Positions 13,346 through 59,916 of a DNA stretch of 64,000 nucleotides are shown one piece after another. The stretch is from assembly GCA_028702495.1 (NCBI GenBank), contig JAQVOS010000002.1, forward strand, positions 39 to 64,038, in the 5' to 3' direction. Source of the stretch: Bacilli bacterium. Its GTDB lineage: Bacteria > Bacillota_I > Bacilli_A > ML615J-28 > CAG-698. The stretch's first letter is position 1, and each line of letters begins with the position of its first letter. Made by a program: the position numbers and the translations under genes. Below the pieces are notes generated by a model. It worked only from the letters and a program-made list of their open reading frames with translations, had not been told where the DNA came from and did not search any database.

Positions 13346-13354
13346 TCCAAACTC

Positions 13355-16966: not shown

Positions 16967-17061
16967 ATTTTTTCTTTCCTCCTCGATAATTTTTTGTTAG
17001 TTTGTTTATATACTTTAGGACTTTCTCCTAATAGCCAAATAAAAAATATAACTGAAAATGT

Positions 17062-28187: not shown

Positions 28188-28197
28188 GATGACCTCC

Positions 28198-29142: not shown

Positions 29143-29144
29143 TA

Positions 29145-30131
29145 TTAGTTACCTACCCTTCTAATCATACGACGAATCAGTTTATTGAGTCCTATGGATG
29201 CTAGGAAGAGGAGCGTTGCAATTGCCGATGCATAACCCATTTCATATCGAATTCCCCCGTAGTCAGATAAGTGGTTCACGATGGTGTGAGCCGCATAGGA
29301 TACAGAGGGGAACCCAGCAAGGGCAGTGGTGATTCCACCAATCCCAAGCGTTCCAGAAATTTGCATAACGGCACTGAATATCAATTGTGGTTTCATTGAT
29401 GGAAGAGTTATATACCATAATTCTTGCCAACGATTACGAATGCCATCAAGAGCTCCAGCTTCATATAATTCTTTATTCACTGATTTTAAACCAGCAACGA
29501 GGGATAAGAACCCTACGCCCAAACTCATCCACAATTGAACGACGATGACAATGGGGAGAATATAGGTCGTGTTGGTTAACCATGTTTGTGGTTCAGTGAT
29601 AAAGCCCCATTCCAAGAGAAAGGCATTGGCATACCCATAAATATCACTTGAAAAAATGAGGGTCCAAATGACAAGAGCATTGGCAGATAATGAAGGGGCA
29701 TAGAAAGCAAGTGTAACAATGGAACGAAGTTTTCCAGGGAGTTCATTAATCAACCAAGCAATCACGAAAGCAGCAACATACCCAATCGGGCCAGTGATGA
29801 CTGCTAATATCAATGTGTTTTTAATTGCAATGATGAAAATTTCATCATCAAGGAATAAGGTAAGATAATTGGTCCATCCAATGAATTTAGGGGCTTCTAA
29901 AATATTATAGGATGTGAAACTCAATGCTAAACTCATGAGGACAGGGATTACTGTGAATGTTACGAAGAGGATTAAATAGGGAAGCATCATGAGGTAAAGT
30001 GTACGGTTTAAGTACATTTTACGACGAACAGGTCCACCTTTTTTACTCCATGCTTCAGCTTTTTCACCCATACGACGCCACCATTGACGAAAAGAGGTCA
30101 AGGCATTTTTCTTTTCAATTGATTGTTGCAT
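29145..30131 (-). CDS. Carbohydrate ABC transporter permease (LplB-like)
   Basis: EAA loop YEAGALDGIRNRWQELWYITLP. Confidence 0.8.
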   Translation of the reverse strand: MQQSIEKKNALTSFRQWWRRMGEKAEAWSKKGGPVRRKMYLNRTLYLMMLPYLILFVTFTVIPVLMSLALSFTSYNILEAPKFIGWTNYLTLFLDDEIFIIAIKNTLILAVITGPIGYVAAFVIAWLINELPGKLRSIVTLAFYAPSLSANALVIWTLIFSSDIYGYANAFLLEWGFITEPQTWLTNTTYILPIVIVVQLWMSLGVGFLSLVAGLKSVNKELYEAGALDGIRNRWQELWYITLPSMKPQLIFSAVMQISGTLGIGGITTALAGFPSVSYAAHTIVNHLSDYGGIRYEMGYASAIATLLFLASIGLNKLIRRMIRRVGN

Positions 30132-30142
30132 CTTAATCCTCC

Positions 30143-37033: not shown

Positions 37034-37967
37034 ATAATTCCTCCAATACGGTAATGGTTTGGTTGTTAGCATCTAGAGACACTTCTAAACCAATCGGAAG
37101 ATTGATAAAGGGAAATTCGTGTCCTGAGGCAAAGTGGGATAAAACTGGTTTCCCTAACGGGGCTAAAAATTCGTAAAAGAGCAGATCGAGCGTCTTATTG
37201 CTCGCGGCATCGCTAGTACAATCTGTCATATGGCCAATGATGAATCCTTTGGCTTCTTGGAGGCGACCTGATAGTCTGAGTTGGGTGAGCATCCGATCAA
37301 TCCGATAAGGAGCTTCATTCACTTCTTCAATAAAGACGATGTGATTACGAAAAGGAATTTCATAAGGTGTTCCGACTAAATGAGCAATTAAACTCAAATT
37401 ACCTCCAACAAGGATACCTTTTGCTACCCCTTCTACCATGGTAGTGACCATTGTTGTGATCGTTGTGGTTGCTGGGGAAGAAAGAATGCGTCCCTTCATC
37501 GGCTGCGTTAGTGCGGTATGAAAATCTTGTAAAGAAAATTGATCTTGAAAGGGAGATCCTACAAAGATTCCAACTTGACCATGTAAGGTAGGAAGTGCGG
37601 CTTTGGTATAAAAATTATTGAGTAAGACTGTAATATCGCTGAATCCTAAAAATAACTTAGGATGATTTTTAATGATGGAATAATCTATTCGGTCGACAAA
37701 GCGGCTGGTTCCATATCCACCCTTTAAACATAGGATGGCATCAATGGAAGGATCTAAAAACATCGCTTCAAGATCGTGTCGCCTTTCATCATCGGTTCCT
37801 GCAAGATACCCATCTTCTTGATAACAAGAAGCGCCATATCGGAAATGAAATCCCCAAGAGGTTAGGATTTCCTCCATTTTAGGAAGACGAGTACTCTTCA
37901 TATCTGCTTTAGAAGCAGGACAGATGATACCGATGGTCGATCCTGGTTTTAATGATTTGACTTTCAT
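37020..37967 (-). CDS. ldcA: LD-carboxypeptidase (muramoyltetrapeptide carboxypeptidase, peptidase S66)
   Basis: S66 features: nucleophile-Ser motif LFLGFSDITVL, and the catalytic-triad His (GFIIGHMT) and Glu (IVFIEEVNE) regions. Confidence 0.8.
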   Translation of the reverse strand: MKVKSLKPGSTIGIICPASKADMKSTRLPKMEEILTSWGFHFRYGASCYQEDGYLAGTDDERRHDLEAMFLDPSIDAILCLKGGYGTSRFVDRIDYSIIKNHPKLFLGFSDITVLLNNFYTKAALPTLHGQVGIFVGSPFQDQFSLQDFHTALTQPMKGRILSSPATTTITTMVTTMVEGVAKGILVGGNLSLIAHLVGTPYEIPFRNHIVFIEEVNEAPYRIDRMLTQLRLSGRLQEAKGFIIGHMTDCTSDAASNKTLDLLFYEFLAPLGKPVLSHFASGHEFPFINLPIGLEVSLDANNQTITVLEELYEED

Positions 37968-37970
37968 AGA

Positions 37971-38942
37971 TTATGCCAATTCTTTACGCATAATGGCAAA
38001 AGATTGACGAACTTTAAATCCAGCATATAAATAGATGTTACGAGCAGGATTGTCTGAACCTGTGAAAAGACTCATAAAAGATGCTCCATTTTTTCGTGAT
38101 TCGTAACATAAGTGGCAGAACAATGACTTTCCAAGTCCCAATCCTTGCGTTTCGGGATGTACCCCAATGCCGGCAAAATACCCTCGACCACTATCTTGAG
38201 TAAACATTGGGCCAGTCCAACCGAGAATGGTTCCATCTTTCTCAGCAATCAACATCGGAGCTGGATTTTCTTTTGCAAGGTTACTCTTAACGGCATCATG
38301 CCATCCTGGATTTTTCAAAGCTTCAAATAATTCAGGGAAGCCATGATGCTTTGCTTCATTATAAATGGTAATGTAATAATTATTCTTTTCGTTTTCAATT
38401 TCCTTCGCAATGACTTTTGCTGGAATTTCATATTGACGAATATCAAGATAATAGCCATCAAGTTGACCATTGGTATTATAGCCATTGGCTAATAGGAGAA
38501 AGTAATATGGTGTGTTGTAAGCAACTGCAGGAGCACCTGGATGATCTGCTTTGTTTGTATCAGGAATATACCATTCAAGATTAATCGGAGAACCAAAATA
38601 CAACCGAACAAGGGTCTTTTTCTTGCTCTTCAGATAAGCTTCGAGCAGAGCAAGAATTTTCGTTCCATATCCTTGGCGTTGATAGGAGCGCTCAATGGCA
38701 ATACAGGTAATGAAGCCTGGAGCGGCTTCATTTTGATTAACAATGGCATGTCCAAAACCAATGAGTTCTTCGCCTTCATAGGCTAACATGAAGCCTTCGG
38801 GATCAAAGCAAGGATTGGTTACAAATTTACTATGAAATGATTCGCAAGTAAACGGTTTATAAATCGAGTAGGGAACGACCGATGTGTTCCACAGTTCAAC
38901 AATGGCAGGAATATTGTTTTCTTCGAATTTTTCTATAATCAT
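37971..38942 (-). CDS. Tandem-GNAT N-acetyltransferase (323 aa), paralog of the 17109..18026 gene
   Basis: GNAT motif A (RQGYGTKILALLE in domain 1, QGLGLGKSLF in domain 2). N-terminal region similar to the other tandem-GNAT. Confidence 0.65.
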   Translation of the reverse strand: MIIEKFEENNIPAIVELWNTSVVPYSIYKPFTCESFHSKFVTNPCFDPEGFMLAYEGEELIGFGHAIVNQNEAAPGFITCIAIERSYQRQGYGTKILALLEAYLKSKKKTLVRLYFGSPINLEWYIPDTNKADHPGAPAVAYNTPYYFLLLANGYNTNGQLDGYYLDIRQYEIPAKVIAKEIENEKNNYYITIYNEAKHHGFPELFEALKNPGWHDAVKSNLAKENPAPMLIAEKDGTILGWTGPMFTQDSGRGYFAGIGVHPETQGLGLGKSLFCHLCYESRKNGASFMSLFTGSDNPARNIYLYAGFKVRQSFAIMRKELA

Positions 38943-38952
38943 AAAGTTCCTC

Positions 38953-39990
38953 CTAAATGTGACTCATGATATAATTGCCTAAGCGACCGCGAAAGGCAAT
39001 GATTTTAATGTTTTCGCGTGTGGGGTGTACCCGGTTTGTAAGCATGCAAAAAGCAACCTGGTTGGTGCGATCGATGAAAATATGAGTTCCTGTAAACCCA
39101 GTATGCATGATGGTTTCAGGACTAACCAAATCACCAGAACAAGGATAATCTCCTTTGATGAGCCAACCCAATCCACGACGATTGAGAGCTTTTGCGATTC
39201 CATTGGGTTCTTCTACTTGAACGGTATACAGTAAATTAATGGTTTGAGGACTGAAAATTCGTTTTCCACGATAAAGTCCTTGATTTAATATCATCTCCAT
39301 AAAATGAGAAATATCTTCAACTGTTGAGAATAATCCCGCATGACCCGCAACTCCTCCTAATGTATGAGCTGCTTCATCGTGAACATAACCTCGGTCAATT
39401 TTATCACCACGATCCTCTGTCGGTGCGCAACGAGCAACATCCGTCGGATTATAAGTGGTATCCTTCATCTCAAGGGGATCAAATATTTGTTCTTTGGCAA
39501 ATTGAGCGAGTGACTTACCACTAATCGCTTCAACAATCCATCCCAAAAGAATAAATCCTAAATCAGAATACACAATTTTAGTGTTCTTTTCGTATTTCAT
39601 ATCCACTTTTTGAATCAAAGTGATGAGTTCTTCCTTGGTTTTATACAAAGAACGAGAGATGAGGGGGGGGAGTCCAGACGTATGCGTCATGAGATCCCAA
39701 ATGGTGACGTTGGTTTTTTCAAAAAATGGTAAATAGGTAGAAACACTATCAAAGAGGCGCAGACGTCCTGCTTCCAAGAGTTTCATAATACAAGAGGTGG
39801 TTGAGACAACTTTAGAGCAAGAAGCCATGTCATATAAAGTTGAAAGATCATTGGCTTCATAAGCGGGATACAAAGCTTTGGCCCCAAAAGATCCAAAGGT
39901 TGTTTTTCCTTTAATGATAAGAGCGAAGTTTGCTCCTGGAAAGACACCCTCCGCTATGGCCTGTTCAATCAGGCGATTCATTCCATCCAT
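38953..39990 (-). CDS. Serine hydrolase of the beta-lactamase / PBP-like family (candidate AmiE-like N-acetylmuramyl-L-alanine amidase or D-aminopeptidase), cytoplasmic
   Basis: SxxK active-site motif (MASCSKVVS), YSD-like region and the KTG-like box HTGFTGT. No signal peptide. Confidence 0.65.
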   Translation of the reverse strand: MDGMNRLIEQAIAEGVFPGANFALIIKGKTTFGSFGAKALYPAYEANDLSTLYDMASCSKVVSTTSCIMKLLEAGRLRLFDSVSTYLPFFEKTNVTIWDLMTHTSGLPPLISRSLYKTKEELITLIQKVDMKYEKNTKIVYSDLGFILLGWIVEAISGKSLAQFAKEQIFDPLEMKDTTYNPTDVARCAPTEDRGDKIDRGYVHDEAAHTLGGVAGHAGLFSTVEDISHFMEMILNQGLYRGKRIFSPQTINLLYTVQVEEPNGIAKALNRRGLGWLIKGDYPCSGDLVSPETIMHTGFTGTHIFIDRTNQVAFCMLTNRVHPTRENIKIIAFRGRLGNYIMSHI

Positions 39991-39991
39991 A

Positions 39992-42184
39992 TTAAGAACT
40001 CCTTAAGGTAATTTTTTGGTGAAAACGACAATAAAAATTGAGATAACACAATTTATCAATCTCGATTTCTGTATAACCACGTTGTTTTAACCCTTCTGCG
40101 ATTTTATAAACTTTGGTGGTATTATCAACATCGATGAGATTGCTATTCGGGAATTCCGATAAATAATCCATAAAGTCAAACCCGAAGCATACATGGTCAA
40201 CATCCATAATCGAAACGGCATAATCAACATGATTGAGGAAATGCTCCAAATCTTGCTCTTCCTTATTGGAAGAAACAAAATTATTCGCAAGAGTAAGGCC
40301 CATTAGCCCATCCGCTCTACGAAGAGCTCGCATTTGATCATCGGTGAGATTACGAACATGGTTACACAAAGACTTAACATTCCCATGGGAATTGATGATG
40401 TTTTTCTGAGTCATCGCTAAAACATCATAGAAACTCTTTTCGTTTAAATGAGCCAAATCGATGATCATATCGAGTGCTTCCATGCGACGAATGAGTTGTT
40501 TTCCTTCTTCATGAAGTCCATGAGATGGATTTGCTTTTGCCCCAGTGGCATATTTGTTTTCTTCATTCCAGGTTAACATCGCATGGCGAAAACCCATTTT
40601 GTATAGAACGTCGATGTCTTCTACTTTTTTAAGATTACGAAGACCTTCTAATCCTAAAATCACTTCAAATTCAGGAAGAAGTTTTAGATTGATTTCTTTC
40701 ATGGCTCGCTCACATGCTTCGATTAAATCAAAGTCATCTGGGGAATACATCGTCCAAATGGAAGCTTTGACGTTAGATGATACGAGTTGAGGAACATGGA
40801 ATGAAGCAAAATGATTGTGATTGTTTGCGAGTGCTTTTTGATTCAAATCATAGAGCATATCACTGTGAATATCAAAAAAGCGTTGATTGGTAAAGACATA
40901 GTTTTTCACAAGATCCTCCATACTTTCACGATGAACGGCGACATGAATGGTGCTATCGCGAACAAAAATGACTTCACTCTTTGTGGCTCCATTATAATTG
41001 GAAGCCATCGAATGACCATAAGCACCTGTGGAATATACAACCAATGTGTCATTAGTTTCTGGTAGTCCCAAGAGGGTATTAGTAACGACAATATCGCCCG
41101 ATTCGCAACATTTACCAACCACATCTACGGTTTCAGTTTTGTCTAGATACGGACGATTGGCAATATCCACGGTATATTTGGCTTTATAGAGGGCGGGTCG
41201 AATGTTATCAGTCATTCCACCATCGACAAATACATATGTTTTCCCATTAAAAATCTTTTTAACCGAGCCAACTGTGTATAAAGTAAGTCCCGCATCCCCC
41301 ACAATGCTTCGTCCTGGTTCAAGCATCACTGTTTCAAGTGTTAGCCCACGGGCAACAACTTCTTCTTGAAGCTTTGTAATCATTGCTTGTAAAAGGGAAG
41401 GAAGATCAATTTCATGATCTGAATCAAGATATTGAATCCCGAACCCACCCCCAAGATTGAGGGTTGTTGCATGAAAACCCGTTAAGCCCCTCACGTGAGC
41501 GATAAACTCTAACAAAGTTTCAATTTCCTTGAGGAAAGCTTCTTCGGTATGAATGTTCGACCCGATGTGAGCGTGGAATCCTTCAAATTTTAAGTAGGGA
41601 GAGATTTCACAAATTTTTACAACCTTCATCATAGTTTCATCATCAAAGATGGATTCTCCAAATTTCGAATACATTTTTGAGGTTTGAATGTATTCGTGAG
41701 TATGCGCTTCAATTCCTGGATTGACACGCAGCAAAATTCGTTGCTCTATTTTCATTTCTTCGGTAAGATTCTTTAAGAGGAGCAACTCTTGAACATGATC
41801 AACCACAATCAAACCAACTCGATTTTCAAGAGCAAACACCAGTTCATCACGCGATTTATTGTTTCCATGAAGAACAACTTGCTCCATGGGGAACCCTGCA
41901 CGCTTCATAAGATACATGTCTCCCAAACTAACAGAATCGAGGTAACACCCTAATTCATGCATCAATGTACAAATATAGGGGGCTATAAAGGCTTTTGATG
42001 CATATACAATATGGGTTTTAAATTGATTGCTTTGGAAATGGGTTTTAAAGGTTGTAACTTTATCGCGAATTTGATTTTCATCATAAACATATAGAGGAGT
42101 CTTATAGACTTTTGCAAGACTTGATAGGAAAAATTTTCCGATGATAAGTTCATTATTTTGAATGGTCATTGATGTTGTCTTCAT
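39992..42184 (-). CDS. Fusion protein (730 aa). An N-terminal diaminopimelate decarboxylase (LysA, PLP fold-III) is joined to a C-terminal M19 (renal/membrane-dipeptidase family) zinc dipeptidase
   Basis: LysA motifs: PLP-Lys VYASKAF, GGGFGI, EPGRSIVGDAG and CESGD. M19 motifs in the last ~300 aa: DIHSD, LTWNEEN, IIDLAHL, NSHGN and CFGFDFMD. Confidence 0.75.
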   Translation of the reverse strand: MKTTSMTIQNNELIIGKFFLSSLAKVYKTPLYVYDENQIRDKVTTFKTHFQSNQFKTHIVYASKAFIAPYICTLMHELGCYLDSVSLGDMYLMKRAGFPMEQVVLHGNNKSRDELVFALENRVGLIVVDHVQELLLLKNLTEEMKIEQRILLRVNPGIEAHTHEYIQTSKMYSKFGESIFDDETMMKVVKICEISPYLKFEGFHAHIGSNIHTEEAFLKEIETLLEFIAHVRGLTGFHATTLNLGGGFGIQYLDSDHEIDLPSLLQAMITKLQEEVVARGLTLETVMLEPGRSIVGDAGLTLYTVGSVKKIFNGKTYVFVDGGMTDNIRPALYKAKYTVDIANRPYLDKTETVDVVGKCCESGDIVVTNTLLGLPETNDTLVVYSTGAYGHSMASNYNGATKSEVIFVRDSTIHVAVHRESMEDLVKNYVFTNQRFFDIHSDMLYDLNQKALANNHNHFASFHVPQLVSSNVKASIWTMYSPDDFDLIEACERAMKEINLKLLPEFEVILGLEGLRNLKKVEDIDVLYKMGFRHAMLTWNEENKYATGAKANPSHGLHEEGKQLIRRMEALDMIIDLAHLNEKSFYDVLAMTQKNIINSHGNVKSLCNHVRNLTDDQMRALRRADGLMGLTLANNFVSSNKEEQDLEHFLNHVDYAVSIMDVDHVCFGFDFMDYLSEFPNSNLIDVDNTTKVYKIAEGLKQRGYTEIEIDKLCYLNFYCRFHQKITLRSS

Positions 42185-43322: not shown

Positions 43323-44945
43323 CTATCGATCTTTTACTAAGTAGTCATAGACTGCTTCTAGTAGTTCACCAGTGGGATCTTCATGATATTCCCAGAACAT
43401 CGCTCCACCCAATTCATTATCAATGATGTATTGAGCTTTATACATGATGCTTTCGCGGTCCTCATAGGATATTGCCACTTTCTGAACGGTATCAAACAAG
43501 TAAGCTGCTTTGGCAATGGAATCAAAATAACGAATGACCTCTCCTGTTCCAAGTCGACTCAAATAATCTTCAACAATGTCATCATGATAAATGGTTTCTC
43601 GTGAACTTGCTGATTGTTTCATGGGTTGAGTCGCAGAGGGTGATAAGTAAAAGCGACGTCCATAAAAAGCAATTCCAACAATCAACTTATTTTTCGGAAC
43701 ACCATAGGCGGCATAGTAATTGACGGTATCGTGAACACTACATCCAGATACTCCATTACTAGAATAGTACAAAGGATTCAAATGAGTTGACGTTGTTTCG
43801 CTGTCCATATCATAGGTCATCAAATGGAAAAAGTCTAAAACAGGTGCTAAATTACTAATTTCAAAGCGAGTAGGTGCCCAAGGTCCTCCTGGGACAGCGG
43901 CACTAAGAATATAATCGGCATTTGCTCGTTTGAGTTGAGTCCGAAGTTCGACCATTAAAGCAGTATAATTCGCTGAGTCTTTGACGACGTTGGTTTCTCC
44001 CCCTTGTGTTCCGCTATAGAAACCGGGATACTCCCAGTCGATGTCAACCCCATCGTAATGGTATTGTTCAATGGCAGCGACAATTGAGCGGGCAAGTGTA
44101 GCCCGTCCTTCTGCTGTTCTTGAAGCTTCACTGAAGGGAACGGCCCCATCGGCATATCCTCCAAGACATAAAACAACCCGAACACCTCGTTTACGAAGGG
44201 CAAGGACATCCTGATAATCCCCGAGTGACGTCACTGAAGCTTCGCCATTGAATACACGACCGAATGCATAATTCACAACATCAAGGGCTGCATACTCATT
44301 TTCTCTTAATCCTGAAAAAGAGGCGTGATCATACAAATATCCAAATGACCGACGACTGGTTGGAAGTGGATCAAAGTTAATTTTTTCGACCAATACTTTT
44401 TGGGTGAAGCTATAAGTTGTGTTTTGCCATCGTAGGGTCGTCGTCATGGTCACGATGATGTCTCTTCTTCCGGGATTGGTAATCCCCGTATTGGATAAAG
44501 TGAAGCGATCAGAGGAAGACCATAAGACGGCCAACTCTCCAAGAGGGGTATTGATGGAAGAAGGAAGCGTGATATTTTCATTGAGTGTTGCCGGTAAATA
44601 GTCCATTAATTCAGCTTGTGCGGCTTCAAAGGATGCTTGTATTAAGGCTTCTGCTTCAGCTTGAGCAGTTTTAAGGGCAAGAATTGTTGCTTCAGCATCG
44701 AGGAGCGTGGAATAGGTGGTAATGAGAACTTTTTCATCCGCAGTTAATTCATCATATTGAACTCGAGCGGCTATGACATCTTCTTCATCATCTAGATTGA
44801 CCTCATCAGGCAATAATAAGATAAGATCTAATACATTATTAATTTTTTGATAATCTAACTCAACAGGAGGATTTCCTTGATTTTTACAACCACCGAGAAT
44901 TCCAATGATTGCGAAAAGCAGGATCAATATAAGGGTTTTTTTCAT
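43323..44945 (-). CDS. Surface lipoprotein with a GH18 domain (chitinase / endo-beta-N-acetylglucosaminidase-like)
   Basis: Lipobox LGGC. GH18 catalytic motif DGVDIDWEYP. ~180-aa N-terminal linker region. Confidence 0.75.
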   Translation of the reverse strand: MKKTLILILLFAIIGILGGCKNQGNPPVELDYQKINNVLDLILLLPDEVNLDDEEDVIAARVQYDELTADEKVLITTYSTLLDAEATILALKTAQAEAEALIQASFEAAQAELMDYLPATLNENITLPSSINTPLGELAVLWSSSDRFTLSNTGITNPGRRDIIVTMTTTLRWQNTTYSFTQKVLVEKINFDPLPTSRRSFGYLYDHASFSGLRENEYAALDVVNYAFGRVFNGEASVTSLGDYQDVLALRKRGVRVVLCLGGYADGAVPFSEASRTAEGRATLARSIVAAIEQYHYDGVDIDWEYPGFYSGTQGGETNVVKDSANYTALMVELRTQLKRANADYILSAAVPGGPWAPTRFEISNLAPVLDFFHLMTYDMDSETTSTHLNPLYYSSNGVSGCSVHDTVNYYAAYGVPKNKLIVGIAFYGRRFYLSPSATQPMKQSASSRETIYHDDIVEDYLSRLGTGEVIRYFDSIAKAAYLFDTVQKVAISYEDRESIMYKAQYIIDNELGGAMFWEYHEDPTGELLEAVYDYLVKDR

Positions 44946-53537: not shown

Positions 53538-53566
53538 GTTTACAATTAGGTAATATTGTGGTAAAA
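53538..53566 (+). promoter_or_regulatory. Sigma-A promoter for the Amidase_2 surface lipoprotein gene (-35 TTTACA, 17-nt spacer, extended -10 TGgTAAAAT)
   Basis: TTTACAattaggtaatattgtggTAAAAT, followed by GGAGG RBS and the ATG at 53590. Confidence 0.6.
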
Positions 53567-53589
53567 TATTAACATTGGAGGAATTATAT

Positions 53590-56500
53590 ATGAAGAAAAT
53601 TATCGTCTTTTTATTGGTTGTTGGTTTGTTTTTCTTTAGTGCCTGCACCAAAGAAGTTACTTACGAACTAACACTCAATGAAGATAACGTCACACTGTAT
53701 GTGGGAGATGTCTATGAAGTGGATTATACAGCAACTGCCAATGGAAAAGAAGCCGATCTGGACGTCACACTCATTACAAGCTCAACAAAAGTCACAATAG
53801 AAGGAAGTAGTATTACTCCTCTTAGTGTTGGGACTGCTAACATCACCGTCGTCTTAGATGAAGATCAAACACTCTTAAAAGCCCTAACCGTGACCATTGT
53901 GAACCCACTTGTCATAACAGAATCCCTAGATGAAATATTTGTGGGGGAAAATATAACCCTATCTGTCGATGATCTTCGCTCTGCTGATCGTTTAGGAACT
54001 CTGACTTGGTCAACCGATGCTCCCGGAGTTGCTACCGTCGAAAACGGGATTGTCACTGGGGTTGGTTCTGGAACAGCCACCATCACCGTAGAAAGTGAAG
54101 AAGGCCTCACTGCAAGAAAGGATATCACCGTTATGTATCGCACGATAACAGGTATCAGTATCAATCCCCTCGAAGAAACATTATACATCTTTGGTTCTAC
54201 TACTTTAGAAGCAACTGTTACTCCTAGCAATGCTGATGGACGCATCACTTGGTCTTCATCCGATACAGACATTGCTTCCATTGATGAAAATGGTAACATC
54301 ACTGCTCATTCAGTTGGAACTGTTACCATCACAGCCACTTCTGTTGCGAACTCGACAATTCAAGCTACTTATGAATTCGATATAGAAATTGATCCCATTG
54401 CCATCATGGCTTCGCTTAACAATCCAAATCCAATCAATCAATTGGTTACTACCTATGGAAATACTGAACTTCAACAAACCGTTTATGGAAGTGTCTCAGA
54501 CTATTTCTTTAGCACCCTTAATCTCATCGATCAAACTGCTAACACTCCCATTACCTTATTGGGGGGAACTGGGCTTACCAATACTTATGCGGGTCTAACA
54601 GCGACCCCTGCGATGCTTCTTGAGGCAGAACCTAAAAAGTTTACTCGTTCTGGCATTTTACATCCAGAAACAACCTATATTACCTACCATGATACAGGGA
54701 ATAATTCTGCAGGAGCCAACGCGATGATGCACCAAAACTATTTGGTGGGTTCATACAATCTGAGTGATCGTGCTCGTTCATGGCATTATACGGTTGATGA
54801 TGATTCCGTGGTTCATCACATTCCCGATAATGAAGTGACATGGCAAGGTGATAGCTACACCAGCTATGCTTACTCCATCGGTATTGAAACCGCCGTTGAC
54901 TTTGGGTCTGATCTCTATGCCACTTGGCATCGAACTGCAAAACTCATGGCTCAACTCATGATTACCTATGATATACCTTTCGAAAACATTGTTCAACACT
55001 ATGACTGGAATGGTAAAAATTGCCCTCAAACCTTACGTCGTAACAACTTATATCCTAAAGCTATGGAAATGGTTCAAGCAGAATTCATGGTAGCCACTTA
55101 TTTATCAGAATATACCATGACCATGACCTCACTCAATCCTGAGTATGTGGATAATCGCGGTCGCGTGGTTGCCCTCCCAGAAACAGCAACTCGCATTGGC
55201 TATCTCGTTCGTATTCAAAAAGGTGAATATGATGAAAGCATCATTTTATATAGCAATCTTCCCGGTCAAGATTCAACCACCACTCCTGTCCTTCCTGGAA
55301 CTGGTACTGATTTAGAAGCAGCAGAAATTTTTGATCAGGGTGTTGCCAATCTTCCTTATACCGTAACAGCTACCGATGATGGTGATATCAAAGCCATGAG
55401 AATTGCTTATAACTGCTTATCCGAAGTGCAACGAAGCTTGGTAACAACTCTTGACTACTTAGAAGCCAAAGAACTAGCCCTTCATGGACTCGATGCTGTA
55501 GCAACACCGCTTGTCATCCATGAAATTTATTCAAGTGATAATGATACCCTATCCCATGGGTTTGTTGAAATATACAATACAACGAATCAAGATATTTCCT
55601 TAAATGGTTATGCTCTCCAAATCAATAATGGTGCTTCTACATCCGTCTTTACCTTTGCAGCCACAGCATCCATTGGTCCAAAGAAAACTTACTTGGTTCA
55701 ATTTGAAGCAACTGCCAATTCGAATGGAACATATTTACCGCTCCCAGATGATGTATCTACGATTCATTTATCGAAGAATGGCTTTGTTGCCCTCACCAAT
55801 TCACTAGAACCATTGGCATCTGCAACGGGTGCCAACGTCATCGACTTTGTTGGGATGGGAACAGGTGCCCTCTTTGAAGGTGTTGCGACCTCAAGTGCTA
55901 ATCAAGACAATCGTTCAATCACTCGCTGGGGTTCCATCGACACCAATCAAAATGCAACTGATTTCAAATCAACTCTACCAACTCCACAAAACTCAAATGG
56001 TCATCTAATTGATACCGATATGAGTGATAATGAAAAGGCAGCAAGAAGTGTTGATTTACTAATTCTTGCTCTTCCTCATGAACTCACAACCGATGATCAA
56101 TCAAAAGTTGCAACCACTCGTACTTCTTACAATGATCTATCCAGTGAAGTAAAAGGTCTTGTCACACTTCTACCATTGCTTGAAGCAAAAGAAACCGAAA
56201 TTGAAGGCTTACTTGATCCAAATCTACAAGTCATCAATCAAGCCATCGCAACCATGAGTCGTCATATTACCGATGATTATGTTTTACCAACCGCTGGTGG
56301 TATTGTATGGTCTTATAAAGCAGGACAAGATACCTCATATTTTGATATTGCAACGGGAACTTATTTGAGATTATCTTATGGATACAAACCAATCACCCTA
56401 GTTGCAACCGTCAATACAACCTCAAAAGAAATTCTCATTAATTTTGGAGTTCTTGAAGCAGGACAAAAGAGCATCTTCTACACAGGAGCTTCTCTACCTG

Positions 56501-57111
56501 CAGCGGGCCAAAATACTGGTGATGGCAAGGGAACTGCTGCTGAACAAGCTGCAAAAGTAGGCTTTGCTGGAATCGCTTTAGTAGTGGATGGAAAAGTATA
56601 TTATGTAGCCGAAAAGAGTTATATTCCGCTTTCTGACGCCCTATCAGGCAGCACCCTCATGATGGAAGATCTACGTCCTTATGGATCCTCTTCGGATTCT
56701 AGCGCTGCTTATAATCAATCTCTTGTTCGTGGCGTGCCAACAGGTTACGCCGGAGCTGGAACACTCTATGAAAACACCTCAAATGTTGACTTATCCTTTG
56801 ACCCAAGCTTCACTTACGGACGTAATAATAGTGGTGCTTATGGCTATGCAAAAGTCGTGTTCAGCCCCAATGGAGATGGAACCTATACGATTAAAACGGC
56901 ATGGGAAAATAGCGGAACCAACACTAGTACCAGTGGTCTTACTAAAACACTGAAACCAGGAGAACTCTTGTGGTGTCCACATACCTATGATACAAATGCA
57001 ACCATGGGTACATGGTGTACACAACCTGGTACTTCAACTTTAGGTACTCCAGCATTAATCGTTGACCATCAAATCACACTCGTATTCTTTAAAACATCGT
57101 TTACAAACTAA
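53590..57111 (+). CDS. Giant surface lipoprotein (1173 aa): three Big_2 domains, an Amidase_2 / PGRP-type N-acetylmuramoyl-L-alanine amidase domain, a lamin-tail (LTD) domain, and a long C-terminal region of unknown fold
   Basis: Lipobox FSAC. Big_2-like repeats. Amidase_2 motifs (ITYHDTGN, SWHYTVDDDSVVHHIPDNEV, SIGIE, HYDWNGKNCPQ). LTD-like segment (LVIHEIYSSDNDTLSHGFVEIYNTTNQDISLNGYALQINNG). This is the only confident plus-strand gene. Confidence 0.75.
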   Translation: MKKIIVFLLVVGLFFFSACTKEVTYELTLNEDNVTLYVGDVYEVDYTATANGKEADLDVTLITSSTKVTIEGSSITPLSVGTANITVVLDEDQTLLKALTVTIVNPLVITESLDEIFVGENITLSVDDLRSADRLGTLTWSTDAPGVATVENGIVTGVGSGTATITVESEEGLTARKDITVMYRTITGISINPLEETLYIFGSTTLEATVTPSNADGRITWSSSDTDIASIDENGNITAHSVGTVTITATSVANSTIQATYEFDIEIDPIAIMASLNNPNPINQLVTTYGNTELQQTVYGSVSDYFFSTLNLIDQTANTPITLLGGTGLTNTYAGLTATPAMLLEAEPKKFTRSGILHPETTYITYHDTGNNSAGANAMMHQNYLVGSYNLSDRARSWHYTVDDDSVVHHIPDNEVTWQGDSYTSYAYSIGIETAVDFGSDLYATWHRTAKLMAQLMITYDIPFENIVQHYDWNGKNCPQTLRRNNLYPKAMEMVQAEFMVATYLSEYTMTMTSLNPEYVDNRGRVVALPETATRIGYLVRIQKGEYDESIILYSNLPGQDSTTTPVLPGTGTDLEAAEIFDQGVANLPYTVTATDDGDIKAMRIAYNCLSEVQRSLVTTLDYLEAKELALHGLDAVATPLVIHEIYSSDNDTLSHGFVEIYNTTNQDISLNGYALQINNGASTSVFTFAATASIGPKKTYLVQFEATANSNGTYLPLPDDVSTIHLSKNGFVALTNSLEPLASATGANVIDFVGMGTGALFEGVATSSANQDNRSITRWGSIDTNQNATDFKSTLPTPQNSNGHLIDTDMSDNEKAARSVDLLILALPHELTTDDQSKVATTRTSYNDLSSEVKGLVTLLPLLEAKETEIEGLLDPNLQVINQAIATMSRHITDDYVLPTAGGIVWSYKAGQDTSYFDIATGTYLRLSYGYKPITLVATVNTTSKEILINFGVLEAGQKSIFYTGASLPAAGQNTGDGKGTAAEQAAKVGFAGIALVVDGKVYYVAEKSYIPLSDALSGSTLMMEDLRPYGSSSDSSAAYNQSLVRGVPTGYAGAGTLYENTSNVDLSFDPSFTYGRNNSGAYGYAKVVFSPNGDGTYTIKTAWENSGTNTSTSGLTKTLKPGELLWCPHTYDTNATMGTWCTQPGTSTLGTPALIVDHQITLVFFKTSFTN

Positions 57112-57113
57112 AC

Positions 57114-57155
57114 AAAAAAAGCCATGGATATCAATATTTTCCATGGCTTTTTTTA
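57114..57155. terminator. Bidirectional rho-independent terminator shared by the two convergent surface-hydrolase genes
   Basis: aaaaaaagccatgga-tatcaatattt-tccatggcttttttt: a perfect stem with an A-run and a T-run. Confidence 0.8.
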
Positions 57156-59792
57156 TTATCTAGTGGAGTGGCCTTCGCCATCTGTTGCCCCACTAATATC
57201 AAAGGTAAAGGATTCACCTTCATAACTAGGGTATTCAGGCAATCCATATCCTGTAATTTTACTATACAATAACGTATAACTGCGTTTAGCAACCATATCA
57301 CTCGTATTCCCTTCGATGGTATAAACGGTCGTACCATCACACGAAATGACAATACCTGTATGAGAGGCTCCATCGCTCTTAAAGAAGATGAGATCTCCTG
57401 CTTTAGGAACATAATTTTCTTTGTATTGAAACAATCCTCTCGTCTTAAACCAATCCATGCCAATACTGACTGATGCATACTTAGGAATAATATCGGTCGA
57501 TATTCCTACTTGATTGCTACACCAAGAGACAAACATTGCACACCACGCTTGATTAGGCAGTCCATACCATGTCCCAAACTTGGTATCATTGTTCGTTCCT
57601 TCTCTATATCCTTCTTCACTTAATGCTTTTTGTAAGAGTAAATGGATGTAATCAATATTAATAGACTTGCCTACGATAATCGGGAATGTGGTGGTGTAAG
57701 TTCCTTTTGATATGGTTAAGATCGCTGTCCCTTCTTTCAGGGGAGTAATAATGCCTTCTTGATTGACCGTAAAGATGGATTGATTACTCGATGAAAATAT
57801 TGCATTCTCATCACTTAGCATCTTGGGATTTGAATCCAAATGAACGAGATTACTTCCATATACTTTAGGACTCGCAAGTAGTGCATCGTAACTAGATAGG
57901 GGTTCATTGCTAGAAGCTCCCATAAACTTAGAACTATGAGAAGCAAGTGCAATTGGATGAGTGGTATCCGTTCCATAAAAATTATGATTCATGTTGATAT
58001 TAGATGGATTGGAGGCTTCTGTATCAGTACTATTCTTATTCTTTAAATAATAAGTACTAGGCAAGCCAATAAAAGTATTATAATTGATGAAGGCTTTGAA
58101 ACGAACTTGATTGGCTACAGCTGCATTATTACGAAGTAAAATGTAGTTTGCACAATCTTCAAAATGGTTATAACTCATGTTGATGGTTGTTAATCCTTCT
58201 TGATAATTTCTAAAGGATACAGCTCCCGAAAATTGAACTGTTTTTTTGCCAACTTCAATAAATGTATTATCAAAAATTGAAATAATGTTTTCAATATTGG
58301 GGGATTTTGATCCATATGTTCTAAAAAAGATGCCATTATATTCGCCATTTTTAAAAGTATTACCCATGATGACCCACTGACAACTTTTATTCACGATACC
58401 ATTTGACATTCTGATGGCATCCTTTGAAAACCCATCAAACGTATTATTGATGATTTTAAAGGAATCCATATTTGATAAAAGAATGCCCATATCCCCAAGG
58501 TTCGAAAAGTGATTGTTTTCAATAATCACATTATTAGAATATTTTGTACCTCCTACAAATAGGAGGAATCCTGTTCCATAAGTAGCTCCATCTGCCCAGC
58601 TTGTCGCAACCACACTTGTATCTTTCACCACATTGTTGATAAAAGTAAAAGTGTTTGCTTGTCCTTCAGCAGTCACGGTTCCACCTTTAGTAAAACATAA
58701 CCCATTCAATGTAAGTTCTTTTACTTGATCTTGGATTCTAATTTTGCCTTCAAGGATGGCTTCTTCGTCTCGTTCTTGGGTTATAGGATTCTTGTCTTTG
58801 TTAGGGCCAACAATTTTAATTGAACTTTTTGCAATCGTAATGTCCTCATTATACGTTCCACCGAGAAGAACAATCTCTGTATGAAGGATGGCTTCCTCGA
58901 TGGCTTGGGCGATGGTAGGAAAAATGTTCACATTTCGATGATAATCGACTCCACCAATATAAAATATGCTTTGCTCAGGATGTTGATCTATCGATGGATC
59001 AACAATGATTTTTAGTAGACTTGTATTAATGATATCACTAACTTCAATCGTTTGTTCAACAAATTGCATAGGATAGGCTGTTGAAGTAGCTCTAATGGTC
59101 ACTGCACCAACCCCAACAAAATGAATTTCACCACTATTGTTGATGGTAGCCACCGATGTATTACTACTATCCCATGTGACAGGTTCGTGATTTTCGATGG
59201 ATAAAACTCTTGTTTCACACACTAAAGCAGTGGTGTTTGTTTGAAATTCAAACGCGGGAAGGATAATGGGAAGAATGGTAACTGTCGTGGATGCAACGAT
59301 ATCGCTATCCATCATCGCTTCAATTTCAACTTTTCCTGCCGCTAGTGCAATGAGTAAGCCATCACTAGTGATGGTTGCAAGTGTATCATCACTTACTTGC
59401 CAAATCACTTCAAGGGCGAGCTCATCATCAATTAAAAGTTGATAAGGACTTTGTTCACCAACATCTATGGTTTGTTCTCCTGTAATGACATAGATTGGGA
59501 GCGGATGAACGGTGATATCAATCGCAAAGGTTTCGCTTATTCCTTCTAATCCAACAATTAGTATAGCATCTCCTTCTGCTATGGCATTCACTGAAAGCCC
59601 TTCAATGGTGACAATTTCAGGATTTTCATTCATTATGGTTAATGGGGCATTACCAATCACAAATATATCAAGATTAAAACTATCTCCAATCGTTACTTCA
59701 TAAGAGGGAGTATTGACTACAAATGTATCGTTTTGAATGGTACACCCTCCCAAGAAAATCATTAATAGAATCATTAATACAATTTTTTTCAT
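57156..59792 (-). CDS. Surface lipoprotein (878 aa): three Big_2 domains, a right-handed parallel beta-helix (pectate-lyase or tailspike-like) region, another Big_2 domain, and a C-terminal CHAP (cysteine, histidine-dependent amidohydrolase/peptidase) domain. The start is at the ATG at 59790-59792
   Basis: Lipobox LGGC. Beta-helix repeats (IIENNHFSNLGDMGILLSNMDSFKIINNTFDGFSKDAIRMSNG...). CHAP catalytic Cys (NQAWCAMFVSW) and His (GASHTGIVIS). GGAG RBS. Confidence 0.75.
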   Translation of the reverse strand: MKKIVLMILLMIFLGGCTIQNDTFVVNTPSYEVTIGDSFNLDIFVIGNAPLTIMNENPEIVTIEGLSVNAIAEGDAILIVGLEGISETFAIDITVHPLPIYVITGEQTIDVGEQSPYQLLIDDELALEVIWQVSDDTLATITSDGLLIALAAGKVEIEAMMDSDIVASTTVTILPIILPAFEFQTNTTALVCETRVLSIENHEPVTWDSSNTSVATINNSGEIHFVGVGAVTIRATSTAYPMQFVEQTIEVSDIINTSLLKIIVDPSIDQHPEQSIFYIGGVDYHRNVNIFPTIAQAIEEAILHTEIVLLGGTYNEDITIAKSSIKIVGPNKDKNPITQERDEEAILEGKIRIQDQVKELTLNGLCFTKGGTVTAEGQANTFTFINNVVKDTSVVATSWADGATYGTGFLLFVGGTKYSNNVIIENNHFSNLGDMGILLSNMDSFKIINNTFDGFSKDAIRMSNGIVNKSCQWVIMGNTFKNGEYNGIFFRTYGSKSPNIENIISIFDNTFIEVGKKTVQFSGAVSFRNYQEGLTTINMSYNHFEDCANYILLRNNAAVANQVRFKAFINYNTFIGLPSTYYLKNKNSTDTEASNPSNINMNHNFYGTDTTHPIALASHSSKFMGASSNEPLSSYDALLASPKVYGSNLVHLDSNPKMLSDENAIFSSSNQSIFTVNQEGIITPLKEGTAILTISKGTYTTTFPIIVGKSINIDYIHLLLQKALSEEGYREGTNNDTKFGTWYGLPNQAWCAMFVSWCSNQVGISTDIIPKYASVSIGMDWFKTRGLFQYKENYVPKAGDLIFFKSDGASHTGIVISCDGTTVYTIEGNTSDMVAKRSYTLLYSKITGYGLPEYPSYEGESFTFDISGATDGEGHSTR

Positions 59793-59811
59793 ATTTTTCT
59801 CCAATATGACT

Positions 59812-59840
59812 ATTATACTGAATATAAAGGGGGATGTCAA
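59812..59840 (-). promoter_or_regulatory. Consensus sigma-A promoter for the CHAP lipoprotein gene (-35 TTGACA, 17-nt spacer, -10 TATAAT)
   Basis: Minus-strand reading TTGACAtccccctttatattcagTATAAT, ~15 nt before the RBS. Confidence 0.75.
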
Positions 59841-59871
59841 TTTCAATTATTTATTCATATTTTGACTACTT

Positions 59872-59916
59872 AAAAAAGCATTGTCACTATTAGGGCAATG
59901 CTTTGATGTTTTTTAT
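59872..59916. terminator. Hairpin with A/T flanks (bidirectional-type terminator) upstream of the CHAP gene promoter
   Basis: aaaaaagcattg-tcactattaggg-caatgcttttgatgtttttt. Confidence 0.5.

What the first reader, a model, noticed from the sequence alone, without database searches (positions are those of the whole stretch)
53538..59840. Convergent pair of giant surface lipoproteins carrying Amidase_2+LTD and beta-helix+CHAP murein-hydrolase modules
Both genes start with lipobox signal peptides followed by three Big_2 Ig-like domains. Both have textbook sigma-A promoters (TTGACA-17-TATAAT and TTTACA-17-TGgTAAAAT) and share one perfect bidirectional terminator. One carries a PGRP/T7-lysozyme-type MurNAc-L-Ala amidase plus a lamin-tail domain. 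The other carries a parallel beta-helix (depolymerase or tailspike-like) plus a CHAP peptidase. This toolkit resembles phage endolysins and depolymerases, but it is anchored on the cell surface and sits next to murein-fragment importers. They may therefore be 'foraging' lysins that attack neighbouring cells or wall debris rather than housekeeping autolysins. The amidase gene is the only plus-strand gene in the window.
Basis: partly seen in the sequence, partly recalled or inferred. Interest (0 to 1): 0.75.

Follow-up and report, generated by a model that had tools for sequence, protein, structure and literature searches.

The report
Membrane-tethered wall-digesting enzymes for murein scavenging
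Two large lipid-anchored enzymes built from phage-lysin-like parts sit at the edge of a ~45-kb gene island for eating bacterial cell wall, in an uncultured Acholeplasma-like bacterium. They are most likely feeding tools that cut up other bacteria's walls, not enzymes for the cell's own division.

Summary
Gene A (53590-57111, +, 1173 aa) has a lipobox, three Big_2 domains, Amidase_2, LTD and an uncharacterised C-terminal domain. Gene B (59792-57156, -, 878 aa) has a lipobox, three Big_2 domains, a pectin-lyase-fold beta-helix, a fourth Ig domain and CHAP. Both promoters and the shared bidirectional terminator are present. Catalytic residues and the lipobox Cys are conserved across both families.

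About 45 kb of the window encodes murein catabolism: MurQ, AnmK, NagZ-MupG, NamZ, NagB, GH18, GH20, LdcA, LysA-dipeptidase and two binding-protein-dependent importers.

In an Acholeplasmataceae MAG, a Big_2 + beta-helix + Amidase_2 protein lies in one gene string with AnmK and the orthologous importer. The window's lineage is Acholeplasma-like, a group that mostly lacks peptidoglycan. No window protein has a wall-anchoring motif.

Best reading (0.6): surface-tethered lysins feed a foreign-murein scavenging pathway. Whether this MAG lacks its own wall could not be tested. The A/B pairing is lineage-specific, and no phage context was found. This is a new variant of known hydrolase kinds. Interest 0.6.

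The parts
53539..53567 (+). Gene A promoter: TTTACA, 17-nt spacer, extended -10 TGgTAAAAT. The leader to the RBS is about 15 nt.
53590..57111 (+). Gene A CDS (1173 aa): surface lipoprotein MurNAc-L-Ala amidase (NCBI MDD4211885.1, annotated only as an Ig-like domain-containing protein).
53590..53646 (+). Gene A signal peptide plus lipobox (FSAC, Cys19).
   Evidence: Cys is at least 90% conserved, and all 24 homologues have lipoprotein-type N-termini.
53662..54393 (+). Gene A: three Big_2 Ig-like domains (aa about 25-268), inferred to act as a stalk.
54634..55047 (+). Gene A Amidase_2 catalytic domain (aa 349-486). Zn ligands H367, H470 and C478, plus Y400, E433 and K476, are invariant in 24 homologues.
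55519..55737 (+). Gene A lamin-tail domain (aa 644-716).
   Evidence: PF00932 is precomputed in most homologues.
56467..57108 (+). Gene A C-terminal conserved domain of about 210 aa with unknown fold family (aa 960-1173). It is preceded by a helix and an Ig-like module (aa 872-955).
57114..57154 (.). Shared bidirectional intrinsic terminator: a GC-core hairpin flanked by an A-run and a T-run.
57156..59792 (-). Gene B CDS (878 aa): surface lipoprotein with a beta-helix and a CHAP domain.
59742..59792 (-). Gene B signal peptide plus lipobox (LGGC, Cys17).
   Evidence: C17 invariant in 13 homologues
59043..59735 (-). Gene B: three Big_2 Ig-like domains (aa about 20-250).
58035..58922 (-). Gene B right-handed parallel beta-helix core (aa about 291-586), pectin-lyase fold. 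D458 is invariant, and A459 and R461 are nearly invariant.
57684..57863 (-). Gene B fourth Ig-like domain (aa 644-703).
57225..57638 (-). Gene B CHAP domain (aa 719-856). C751, H811 and E827 are invariant.
59812..59840 (-). Gene B promoter: perfect TTGACA-17-TATAAT.
59875..59904 (-). Terminator-like hairpin that insulates gene B from the upstream peroxiredoxin / small-ORF unit.
43323..44945 (-). Context: lipoprotein GH18 (EndoS-like endo-beta-N-acetylglucosaminidase fold) with an aBig_2 domain. Candidate third extracellular wall-cutting enzyme.
26235..33118 (-). Context: importer module with a giant membrane-anchored SBP (991 aa), two permeases and an NHL/TPR protein. It is orthologous to the importer that follows the surface amidase in L040.
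7805..14500 (-). Context: cytoplasmic MurNAc pathway. MurQ etherase, AnmK, a BadF-type sugar kinase, a NagZ(GH3)-MupG fusion and NamZ.
37020..42184 (-). Context: stem-peptide pathway. LD-carboxypeptidase (S66), a double GNAT, a PBP4B/AmpH-like beta-lactamase-fold protein, and a LysA (DAP decarboxylase)-M19 dipeptidase fusion.

Best explanation
Genes A and B encode two independently transcribed enzymes that are lipid-anchored to the outer face of the cell membrane. They digest peptidoglycan that does not belong to the producer: wall debris, and possibly the walls of cells it touches. Their products feed the murein-catabolism pathway encoded in the rest of the window.

Proposed steps:
1. Each protein is exported and acylated at the lipobox Cys. 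Three Ig-like domains hold the catalytic parts away from the membrane. This step is inferred from the sequence.
2. Gene A's Zn-dependent Amidase_2 domain cuts the MurNAc-L-Ala bond and separates glycan strands from stem peptides. The LTD and the novel C-terminal domain probably bind substrate (inferred).
3. Gene B's beta-helix binds or depolymerises a wall-associated glycan such as teichoic acid, capsule or the glycan strand. Its CHAP Cys-His-Glu domain cuts stem peptides or cross-bridges (inferred).
4. The GH18 lipoprotein may shorten the glycan strands (inferred).
5. Fragments enter through the binding-protein-dependent importers (inferred from context).
6. Cytoplasmic NamZ, NagZ-MupG, AnmK, MurQ and NagB convert the sugars to fructose-6-P and D-lactate. 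LdcA, the dipeptidase and LysA process the peptides, yielding lysine from meso-DAP. The genes are shown; the flux is inferred.

Shown here: domain identities, conserved catalytic residues, lipoboxes, transcription signals, the gene context, and the operon linkage in a relative.
For: Domains and catalytic residues are intact and invariant across 24 (A) and 13 (B) homologues. The lipobox Cys is conserved.

The window encodes MurQ, AnmK, NagZ, NagB and LysA above NCBIfam cut-offs, plus NamZ, MupG, GH18, GH20, GHL10, S66 LdcA and two importer sets.

In Acholeplasmataceae MAG GCA_046540115.1 (L040), a Big_2 + beta-helix + Amidase_2 protein with a lipobox lies on one strand between [MurR-like regulator, AnmK, GHL10, beta-lactamase-like] and [SBPs, two permeases, NHL protein]. 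These are orthologues of window genes: giant SBP 44% over 962 aa, permeases 61% and 57.5%, AnmK 41%.

Lineage: all named top YmdB hits are 'Bacilli bacterium' or 'Acholeplasmataceae bacterium' MAGs. A full-length gene A homologue occurs in Acholeplasma sp. OttesenSCG-928-E16.

Acholeplasmataceae are predicted to lack peptidoglycan (PMC10868615). Acholeplasma was the dominant early assimilator of 13C-labelled dead E. coli biomass (PMC4628116).

All exported proteins in the window are membrane-anchored: six lipoboxes and at least two N-terminal TM anchors. None of the ORFs has an LPXTG signal, and no LysM, SH3b, SLH or choline-binding domain was found.

The pathway ends in catabolism: NagB, a FAD-linked 2-hydroxyacid oxidase with EtfAB beside MurQ, and LysA.
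Against: Acholeplasmatales and neighbouring orders include species predicted to be thin-walled.

The same catabolic genes (MurQ, NagZ, NamZ, LdcA, PBP4B-like) serve recycling of the cell's own wall in walled bacteria such as B. subtilis and E. coli (established knowledge; PMC5061867 and PMC8054146 listed).

Genes A and B are about 10 kb from the nearest catabolic gene and 20-33 kb from the importers. No shared operator motif links their promoters to the catabolic operons.

In other genomes, A and B homologues sit in unrelated contexts. No enzymatic activity or substrate is demonstrated.
Confidence: 0.6

Rival explanations
1. The organism has a (thin) peptidoglycan wall of its own. A and B are membrane-tethered autolysins or remodelling enzymes for growth, separation and turnover. 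The island recycles the cell's own turnover products, as the B. subtilis murQ-murR-murP-amiE-nagZ-namZ region and E. coli AmiD/AmpG/LdcA do.
For: The island's gene set overlaps known recycling pathways. Lipoprotein or membrane-tethered wall hydrolases that act on the cell's own wall are known, for example E. coli AmiD (established knowledge). Some Acholeplasmatales and related orders are predicted to be thin-walled. The wall status of this MAG is untested.
Against: Family members occur in genomes assigned to Acholeplasma and Acholeplasmataceae, a family predicted to lack peptidoglycan. The window has no wall-binding or sortase-anchored proteins. The pathway ends in catabolism (NagB, LysA, 2-hydroxyacid oxidase/Etf), and the window has no Mpl/MurU-type re-use genes. 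A depolymerase-like beta-helix is not a usual autolysin module.
Confidence: 0.25
2. A and B are antagonistic weapons: contact-dependent bacteriolysins used mainly to kill competitors, like lysostaphin- or zoocin-type exolysins but cell-bound. Nutrition is only a by-product.
For: The catalytic modules are endolysin-like. Both genes have strong stand-alone promoters and their own terminator. They are physically separate from the catabolic operons and share no operator motif with them.
Against: No immunity gene or bacteriocin-type export/processing genes lie nearby. In L040 the related amidase is embedded in the importer/catabolic operon, which points to feeding. Killing and feeding are not mutually exclusive.
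Confidence: 0.1
3. They are remnants of a prophage (endolysin plus tailspike depolymerase) or recently transferred phage genes with no cellular role.
For: PHROG endolysin hits for both catalytic domains. The CHAP domain is 37-44% identical to proteins on 27 small viral contigs. The beta-helix resembles phage depolymerases.
Against: No phage structural, holin, integrase or terminase genes among the window's ORFs. No relative of the gene A family was found on IMG/VR contigs, and only the CHAP domain of gene B matched there. Neither protein's beta-helix or other regions matched a tailspike PHROG. Both have lipoprotein signal peptides, conserved family-wide. GC content matches the surroundings. 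Synteny with housekeeping neighbours is conserved in a species whose orthologues are 54-57% identical.
Confidence: 0.03

Closest known systems
Bacillus prophage endolysin amidases XlyA (PDB 3hmb/3rdr) and PlyL (1yb0); CwlA-type Amidase_2 enzymes
   Same: Best solved-sequence match to gene A's catalytic domain (E 6e-18). Same Zn ligands and H-x5-K-x-C motif. PHROG amidase/endolysin hits.
   Different: Those are proteins of about 160-300 aa without a lipobox, released by holins or secreted, and carrying wall-binding domains. Gene A is a 1173-aa lipoprotein with three Ig domains, an LTD and a novel C-terminal domain, and it is not in a phage.
E. coli AmiD (outer-membrane lipoprotein, Amidase_2 fold)
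   Same: A lipid-anchored Amidase_2 MurNAc-L-Ala amidase linked to muropeptide turnover and recycling (established knowledge, not tested here).
   Different: AmiD is small (about 276 aa), has a PG_binding-type C-terminal domain, faces the cell's own periplasmic sacculus, and has no Ig stalk or LTD. Sequence relationship was not tested beyond shared Pfam membership.
B. subtilis MurNAc recovery system (murQ-murR-murP-amiE-nagZ-namZ) and S. aureus MurQ/MupG pathway
   Same: The window encodes MurQ, NagZ, NamZ, MupG and a beta-lactamase-fold protein that may correspond to AmiE. The papers are listed (PMC8054146, PMC6262408, PMC5061867).
   Different: Uptake here uses binding-protein-dependent ABC importers with giant SBPs, not the MurP PTS. 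NamZ and NagZ lack signal peptides here. The window adds AnmK, GH18, GH20, LdcA and a LysA-dipeptidase fusion. The extracellular step uses tethered endolysin-like enzymes.
Phage tailspike / capsule depolymerases and bacterial beta-helix polysaccharide lyases (for example Vibrio RbmB, PDB 9ozd)
   Different: Only 11-18% identity. No tailspike PHROG hit. No particle-binding N-terminus. It is fused to a CHAP domain and a lipobox. No catalytic residues of a defined PL or GH family could be assigned.
CHAP endolysins / TIGR02594 family
   Same: CHAP profile match and Cys-His-Glu triad. Endolysin phrog_9589 at 2e-28. 37-44% identity to viral-contig proteins.
   Different: TIGR02594 scores 34.8 against a cut-off of 70.55, so it is not a member of that subfamily. 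The CHAP domain is the C-terminal module of an 878-aa lipoprotein.
Murein scavengers and predators (Tannerella forsythia MurNAc auxotrophy; Bdellovibrio prey-wall hydrolases)
   Same: The concept of a bacterium using other bacteria's peptidoglycan (established knowledge; Bdellovibrio papers listed).
   Different: Different phyla, enzymes and envelope. Here the producer is probably a wall-less Mollicute-like cell using membrane-tethered enzymes. No such system turned up in six targeted literature searches.

Membership tests
Amidase_2 (PF01510; T7-lysozyme/PGRP-type N-acetylmuramoyl-L-alanine amidase) | Profile match above the curated threshold | tested here: met
   57.7 bits against 26, aa 366-485. 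PDB XlyA E 6e-18.
Amidase_2 (PF01510; T7-lysozyme/PGRP-type N-acetylmuramoyl-L-alanine amidase) | Zn-binding His/His/Cys and catalytic Lys/Glu/Tyr present | tested here: met
   H367, H470, C478, K476, E433 and Y400 align to XlyA and are invariant in 24 homologues.
Amidase_2 (PF01510; T7-lysozyme/PGRP-type N-acetylmuramoyl-L-alanine amidase) | Hydrolysis of the MurNAc-L-Ala bond | not testable with these tools
   Needs an enzyme assay with muropeptide LC-MS.
CHAP (PF05257) | Profile match above the curated threshold | tested here: met
   48 bits against 26, aa 765-847.
CHAP (PF05257) | Catalytic Cys and His plus a polar third residue | tested here: met
   C751, H811 and E827 (and N829) are invariant in 13 homologues.
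CHAP (PF05257) | Bond specificity (amidase or D-Ala-X endopeptidase) | not testable with these tools
   Requires biochemistry.
Pectin-lyase-fold beta-helix polysaccharide depolymerase | Right-handed parallel beta-helix fold | tested here: met
   [not shown]
Pectin-lyase-fold beta-helix polysaccharide depolymerase | Catalytic residues of a defined PL or GH family | tested here: inconclusive
   D458 is invariant, and A459 and R461 are nearly invariant, but they could not be mapped to a defined family. Non-enzymatic beta-helix adhesins such as PfbA also match.
Phage tailspike | Virion-attachment N-terminal domain and phage genomic context | tested here: not met
   No tailspike PHROG match. Only the CHAP domain of gene B matched viral contigs. 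No phage genes in the window.
Phage endolysin | Encoded in a lysis cassette of a (pro)phage | tested here: not met
   No holin or phage genes in 64 kb. No IMG/VR relatives for the gene A family. Chromosomal synteny is conserved.
Bacterial lipoprotein (Lgt/LspA substrate) | n-region, h-region and lipobox with an invariant Cys | tested here: met
   B has LGGC (canonical). A has FSAC (Phe at -3 is unusual). The Cys is conserved across both families. An Lgt gene lies next to the related operon in L040.
Bacterial lipoprotein (Lgt/LspA substrate) | Actual acylation and surface exposure | not testable with these tools
   Needs globomycin or palmitate labelling, or surface shaving.
Housekeeping septal autolysin | Producer has peptidoglycan, and the enzyme carries or partners with wall- or divisome-targeting modules | tested here: inconclusive
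   No LysM, SH3b, SPOR, choline-binding or SLH domains. The lineage is mostly peptidoglycan-deficient. The genome of this MAG could not be inspected.

The most novel reading that the evidence does not exclude
A wall-less, Acholeplasma-like free-living Mollicute is a specialised murein eater. It carries endolysin-derived enzymes on lipid anchors and Ig stalks, including a previously unseen C-terminal fold and a depolymerase-CHAP fusion. With these it lyses walled bacteria on contact ('lysis from without' by a cell rather than a phage) and lives on their peptidoglycan, including salvaging lysine from meso-DAP through a LysA-dipeptidase fusion. Having no wall itself makes it immune to its own enzymes.
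Probability: 0.2. Interest if true: 0.85.

Novelty: new variant of a known kind. Interest (0 to 1): 0.6.

Why it matters
Peptidoglycan is a major pool of bacterial necromass, yet few dedicated anaerobic or uncultured consumers are understood at gene level. Stable-isotope probing showed free-living Acholeplasma to be the first assimilators of dead bacterial biomass (PMC4628116), but no mechanism was offered.

This locus, together with the operon in L040, gives a concrete and testable enzyme-to-importer-to-catabolism route. If the producer has no wall, these are lysins with no self-target. That would be a clean natural example of cell-surface 'exolysins'.

It would also be a source of new modules for engineered lysins:
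- an Ig stalk;
- a novel C-terminal domain that may bind wall material;
- a depolymerase-like beta-helix fused to CHAP.

It also bears on how lineages that lost their wall exploit the walls of others.

Tried and rejected
- Exact-sequence look-up of A and B in the assembly index found nothing. Only a 5,987-bp Logan contig carries B, so the rest of the genome, and hence its wall status, could not be reached.
- The word-indexed search made gene B look like an orphan. This was an artefact of Big_2 words saturating the candidate list. The exhaustive HMMER search found about 15 near-full-length relatives, and an orthologue with 54% identity is present in L006.
- The phage-origin hypothesis was rejected.
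- An obligate A+B two-gene module was rejected. The pairing is seen only in the window and in one related species (L006-L008, with three genes inserted between A and B). Elsewhere A or B occurs alone.
- Co-regulation motif: there are no shared 9-mers or longer, and no common palindrome, between the A and B promoters or other intergenic regions.
- Rfam found no regulatory RNA. The only weak hit is the terminator hairpin itself.
- A weak alpha-lactalbumin/lysozyme hint in the 776-aa lipoprotein did not survive a direct BLAST against hen lysozyme.
- PDB searches of the 439-aa and 565-aa lipoproteins were uninformative.
- The L006 orthologue could not be used in structure prediction because it was not an admissible sequence. 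The beta-helix model therefore rests on only three sequences.
Full report
**1. What is there**

The region holds two convergent ORFs, 53575..57111 (+) and 57156..59846 (-). The sequence places good ribosome-binding sites before ATG 53590 (GGAGG, 8 nt upstream) and ATG 59792 (GGAG, 6 nt upstream). The 1173-aa product of gene A is identical to NCBI MDD4211885.1, 'MAG: Ig-like domain-containing protein [Bacilli bacterium]', on a 64,140-bp contig.

Both N-termini are lipoprotein signal peptides: A ends ...LFFFSAC and B ends ...IFLGGC.

Pfam results for gene A are Big_2, Amidase_2 (57.7 bits, cut-off 26) and LTD (41.9, cut-off 34.3). For gene B they are Big_2, CHAP (48, cut-off 26) and a borderline Beta_helix (25.5, cut-off 25.9), which is backed by TIGR03804.

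An iterated internal-repeat search resolves three N-terminal Ig repeats in each protein. It also finds a fourth in B just before the CHAP domain.

The promoter scan finds a perfect TTGACA-17-TATAAT at 59840..59812, the only 12/12 match in 7.5 kb. It also finds TTTACA-17-TGgTAAAAT at 53539..53567. The overall number of promoter-like hits equals the shuffled expectation, so the argument rests on match quality and position. My estimate is that a 12/12 match has about a 1% chance of occurring anywhere in this stretch. Both leaders are only about 13-16 nt long, which leaves no room for a riboswitch, and Rfam finds none.

The 44-bp spacer between the stop codons is one hairpin with an A-run on one side and a T-run on the other. 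It folds at -20.1 and -22.2 kcal/mol on the two strands (z -8.0 and -6.8).

Gene A is the only plus-strand ORF of at least 150 aa among 45.

**2. The two proteins are real, conserved enzyme families**

Gene A has about 28 full-length homologues at 33-68% identity. In a 24-sequence alignment the Zn ligands and catalytic residues (H367, H470, C478, K476, E433, Y400) are invariant. They align to the B. subtilis prophage endolysin XlyA. Every homologue has a lipoprotein-type N-terminus.

Gene B looked like an orphan in the word-indexed search. That was an artefact:
- An orthologue with 54% identity sits in the syntenic locus L006.
- An exhaustive HMMER search of 1.84 billion representatives finds about 15 near-full-length relatives at 33-51% identity.

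In 13 of these, the lipobox Cys17 and the CHAP residues C751, H811 and E827 are invariant. D458 in the beta-helix is also invariant, with A459 and R461 nearly so.

Gene A's last ~300 residues model confidently (pLDDT 90.8, pTM 0.88) as a helix, a small Ig-like module and a beta-rich domain of about 210 aa. That domain has no detectable relative:
- The viral structure set gives nothing at E<=0.001.
- A permissive Pfam scan of 16 family members finds no consistent family.

It carries many invariant polar residues (R, N, Y, K, H). It is therefore probably a ligand-binding or catalytic module of a kind not yet described.

**3. Not phage-borne**

Both catalytic modules resemble endolysins: PHROG amidase 1e-27 and CHAP endolysin 2e-28. 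The CHAP domain is 37-44% identical to proteins on 27 small viral contigs. Five things argue against a phage origin:
- None of the window's other ORFs is a phage gene.
- The gene A family has no relatives on IMG/VR contigs.
- Only the CHAP module of B matches viral contigs.
- GC content is unremarkable.
- The locus is syntenic with housekeeping neighbours in a second species.

**4. Context: a murein-catabolism island**

Scanning every large ORF shows the following.

Sugar pathway:
- MurQ etherase (TIGR00274, 358 bits against a cut-off of 302).
- AnmK (435 against 387).
- A BadF-type sugar kinase.
- A NagZ(GH3)-MupG fusion.
- NamZ.
- A second GH3.
- NagB (297 against 237).
- GH20 and GHL10.
- A lipoprotein GH18 with an EndoS-like barrel.

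Peptide pathway:
- An S66 LD-carboxypeptidase.
- A PBP4B/AmpH-like beta-lactamase-fold protein.
- A LysA (413 against 298) fused to an M19 dipeptidase.

Transport and other:
- Two sets of binding-protein-dependent permeases, one with a 991-aa membrane-anchored SBP.
- A FAD-linked 2-hydroxyacid oxidase with EtfAB next to MurQ.

NamZ and both GH3 enzymes lack signal peptides. The extracellular steps therefore fall to the lipoproteins (A, B, GH18 and others).

The adjacent ABC transporters (44958-48493) are exporter-type. The importers are 20-33 kb away.

**5. The key comparative result**

In Acholeplasmataceae MAG GCA_046540115.1 (L040), a lipobox-bearing Big_2 + beta-helix + Amidase_2 protein (P0123) shares A's catalytic module and B's beta-helix. 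It lies on one strand, with short gaps, in this order:
- a MurR-like HTH_6+SIS regulator;
- AnmK;
- GHL10;
- a beta-lactamase-like protein;
- P0123;
- an 805-aa protein;
- an Ig+SBP lipoprotein;
- a 966-aa SBP;
- two permeases;
- an NHL protein.

These are orthologues of window genes: giant SBP 44% over 962 aa, permeases 61% and 57.5%, AnmK 41%, GHL10 39%, beta-lactamase-like 39%, NHL/TPR protein 39%. In a relative, then, a surface amidase of this type is operonically coupled to the same importer and to anhydro-MurNAc catabolism. This is the best available evidence that such enzymes feed the pathway.

**6. Whose wall?**

The top 120 YmdB homologues that carry names are all 'Bacilli bacterium' or 'Acholeplasmataceae bacterium' MAGs. 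A full-length gene A homologue is in Acholeplasma sp. OttesenSCG-928-E16 (Mollicutes).

A 2,650-genome survey predicts that Acholeplasmataceae lack peptidoglycan. It also predicts that the order and its neighbours mix thin-walled and wall-less species (PMC10868615).

No window protein has an LPXTG signal or a wall-binding domain. All exported proteins are lipid- or TM-anchored.

RNA-SIP identified Acholeplasma as the dominant early assimilator of 13C-labelled dead E. coli biomass (PMC4628116).

Together these favour foreign peptidoglycan as the substrate. I could not inspect the rest of this genome, so this step is inference.

**7. Limits on the 'pair'**

The convergent arrangement is shared only with one related species, whose A and B orthologues are 57% and 54% identical to the window's. 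In that species three small genes are inserted between A and B, so the shared terminator is not conserved. Elsewhere, B relatives keep the peroxiredoxin neighbour but have no A nearby. A relatives occur alone in unrelated contexts. No common operator motif links the two promoters to each other or to the catabolic operons. A and B are best seen as two independent members of a modular toolkit (Big_2 stalk plus shuffled Amidase_2, beta-helix and CHAP modules), not as a two-gene system.

**8. Verdict**

Most likely (0.6), these are membrane-tethered exolysins that supply a foreign-murein scavenging pathway. The main rival (0.25) is turnover and recycling of the cell's own wall in a thin-walled organism. 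Antagonism (0.1) and phage remnant (0.03) are less likely.

The catalytic domains belong to known families. The new features are the architecture, the tethering, the likely wall-less producer, the depolymerase-CHAP fusion and the orphan C-terminal fold. In six targeted literature searches I found no description of such enzymes in Acholeplasma-like bacteria. The absence of a paper in the held library is not proof of novelty.

Noticed in passing
window 39992-42184 (-): Fusion of a bona fide diaminopimelate decarboxylase (LysA, TIGR01048, 413 bits against 298) to an M19 membrane-dipeptidase-family domain, inside the stem-peptide operon. It suggests channelling from a DAP-containing dipeptide to lysine, that is, lysine salvage from foreign murein.
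   Followed up: partly
window 10727-13345 (-): Single 872-aa protein fusing GH3 NagZ (beta-N-acetylhexosaminidase) to 6-phospho-N-acetylmuramidase MupG. It is adjacent to a BadF-type kinase, AnmK and MurQ.
   Followed up: partly
window 3585-6966 (-): A FAD-linked 2-hydroxyacid oxidase (GlcD-like) with EtfA/EtfB lies directly downstream of the MurQ cluster. It may oxidise the D-lactate released by the MurNAc-6-P etherase. This is inference only.
   Followed up: no
window 50517-51836 (-): A 439-aa lipoprotein with an N-terminal coiled coil, a CIGDSLT motif and a weak GDSL-lipase hit (E 0.023). It is conserved, together with the PfkB kinase, immediately upstream of gene A in L006-L008. It could be a peptidoglycan O-acetyl esterase or another SGNH hydrolase.
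   Followed up: partly
[not shown]
   Followed up: yes
L040 5680-22991: An Acholeplasmataceae MAG operon: MurR-like regulator, AnmK, GHL10, beta-lactamase-like, Big_2 + beta-helix + Amidase_2 lipoprotein, 805-aa unknown, two SBPs, permeases and an NHL protein. An Lgt gene lies just upstream. The 64-kb window itself contains no MurR-like regulator.
   Followed up: yes
window 30143-33118 and 22414-25563 (-): Unusually large transport-associated proteins: a 991-aa SBP with an N-terminal TM anchor and a ~590-aa extension ahead of the SBP fold, and a 1049-aa TM-anchored DUF5696 protein beside the second permease pair. Their roles are unknown.
   Followed up: no
window 1024-3354 and 15271-16968 (-): Two more Big_2 lipoproteins (776 and 565 aa) with no recognisable catalytic domain. 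The 565-aa one is 25% identical to an Ig+SBP lipoprotein in L040, so it may be a divergent substrate-binding protein.
   Followed up: partly
L010-L036 (IMG/VR contigs of 4-14 kb): Gene B's CHAP domain (aa 719-842) is 37-44% identical to proteins on 27 small viral contigs. Many are 4-6 kb, which is roughly the size of small ssDNA phage genomes. The source of this CHAP lineage may be worth tracing.
   Followed up: no
window whole (1-64000): Extreme strand bias: about 58 kb of coding sequence on the minus strand against 3.5 kb (gene A only) on the plus strand. Cumulative GC skew declines steadily across the window.
   Followed up: partly
window 52791-53447 (-): A chloramphenicol-acetyltransferase-family gene is transcribed divergently from gene A across a 142-bp intergenic region. 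It is absent from the syntenic locus in L006-L008.
   Followed up: no
window 60068-60277 (-): A 69-aa hydrophobic small ORF lies in the 560-bp gap between the peroxiredoxin gene and gene B, followed by a terminator-like hairpin (59875-59904). The gap is only about 105 bp in L006.
   Followed up: no
L006 13658-15062: In the related species, three genes (95 aa, 47 aa and a 323-aa metallophosphoesterase) are inserted between the A and B orthologues. The shared terminator seen in the window is therefore a recent, local arrangement.
   Followed up: partly
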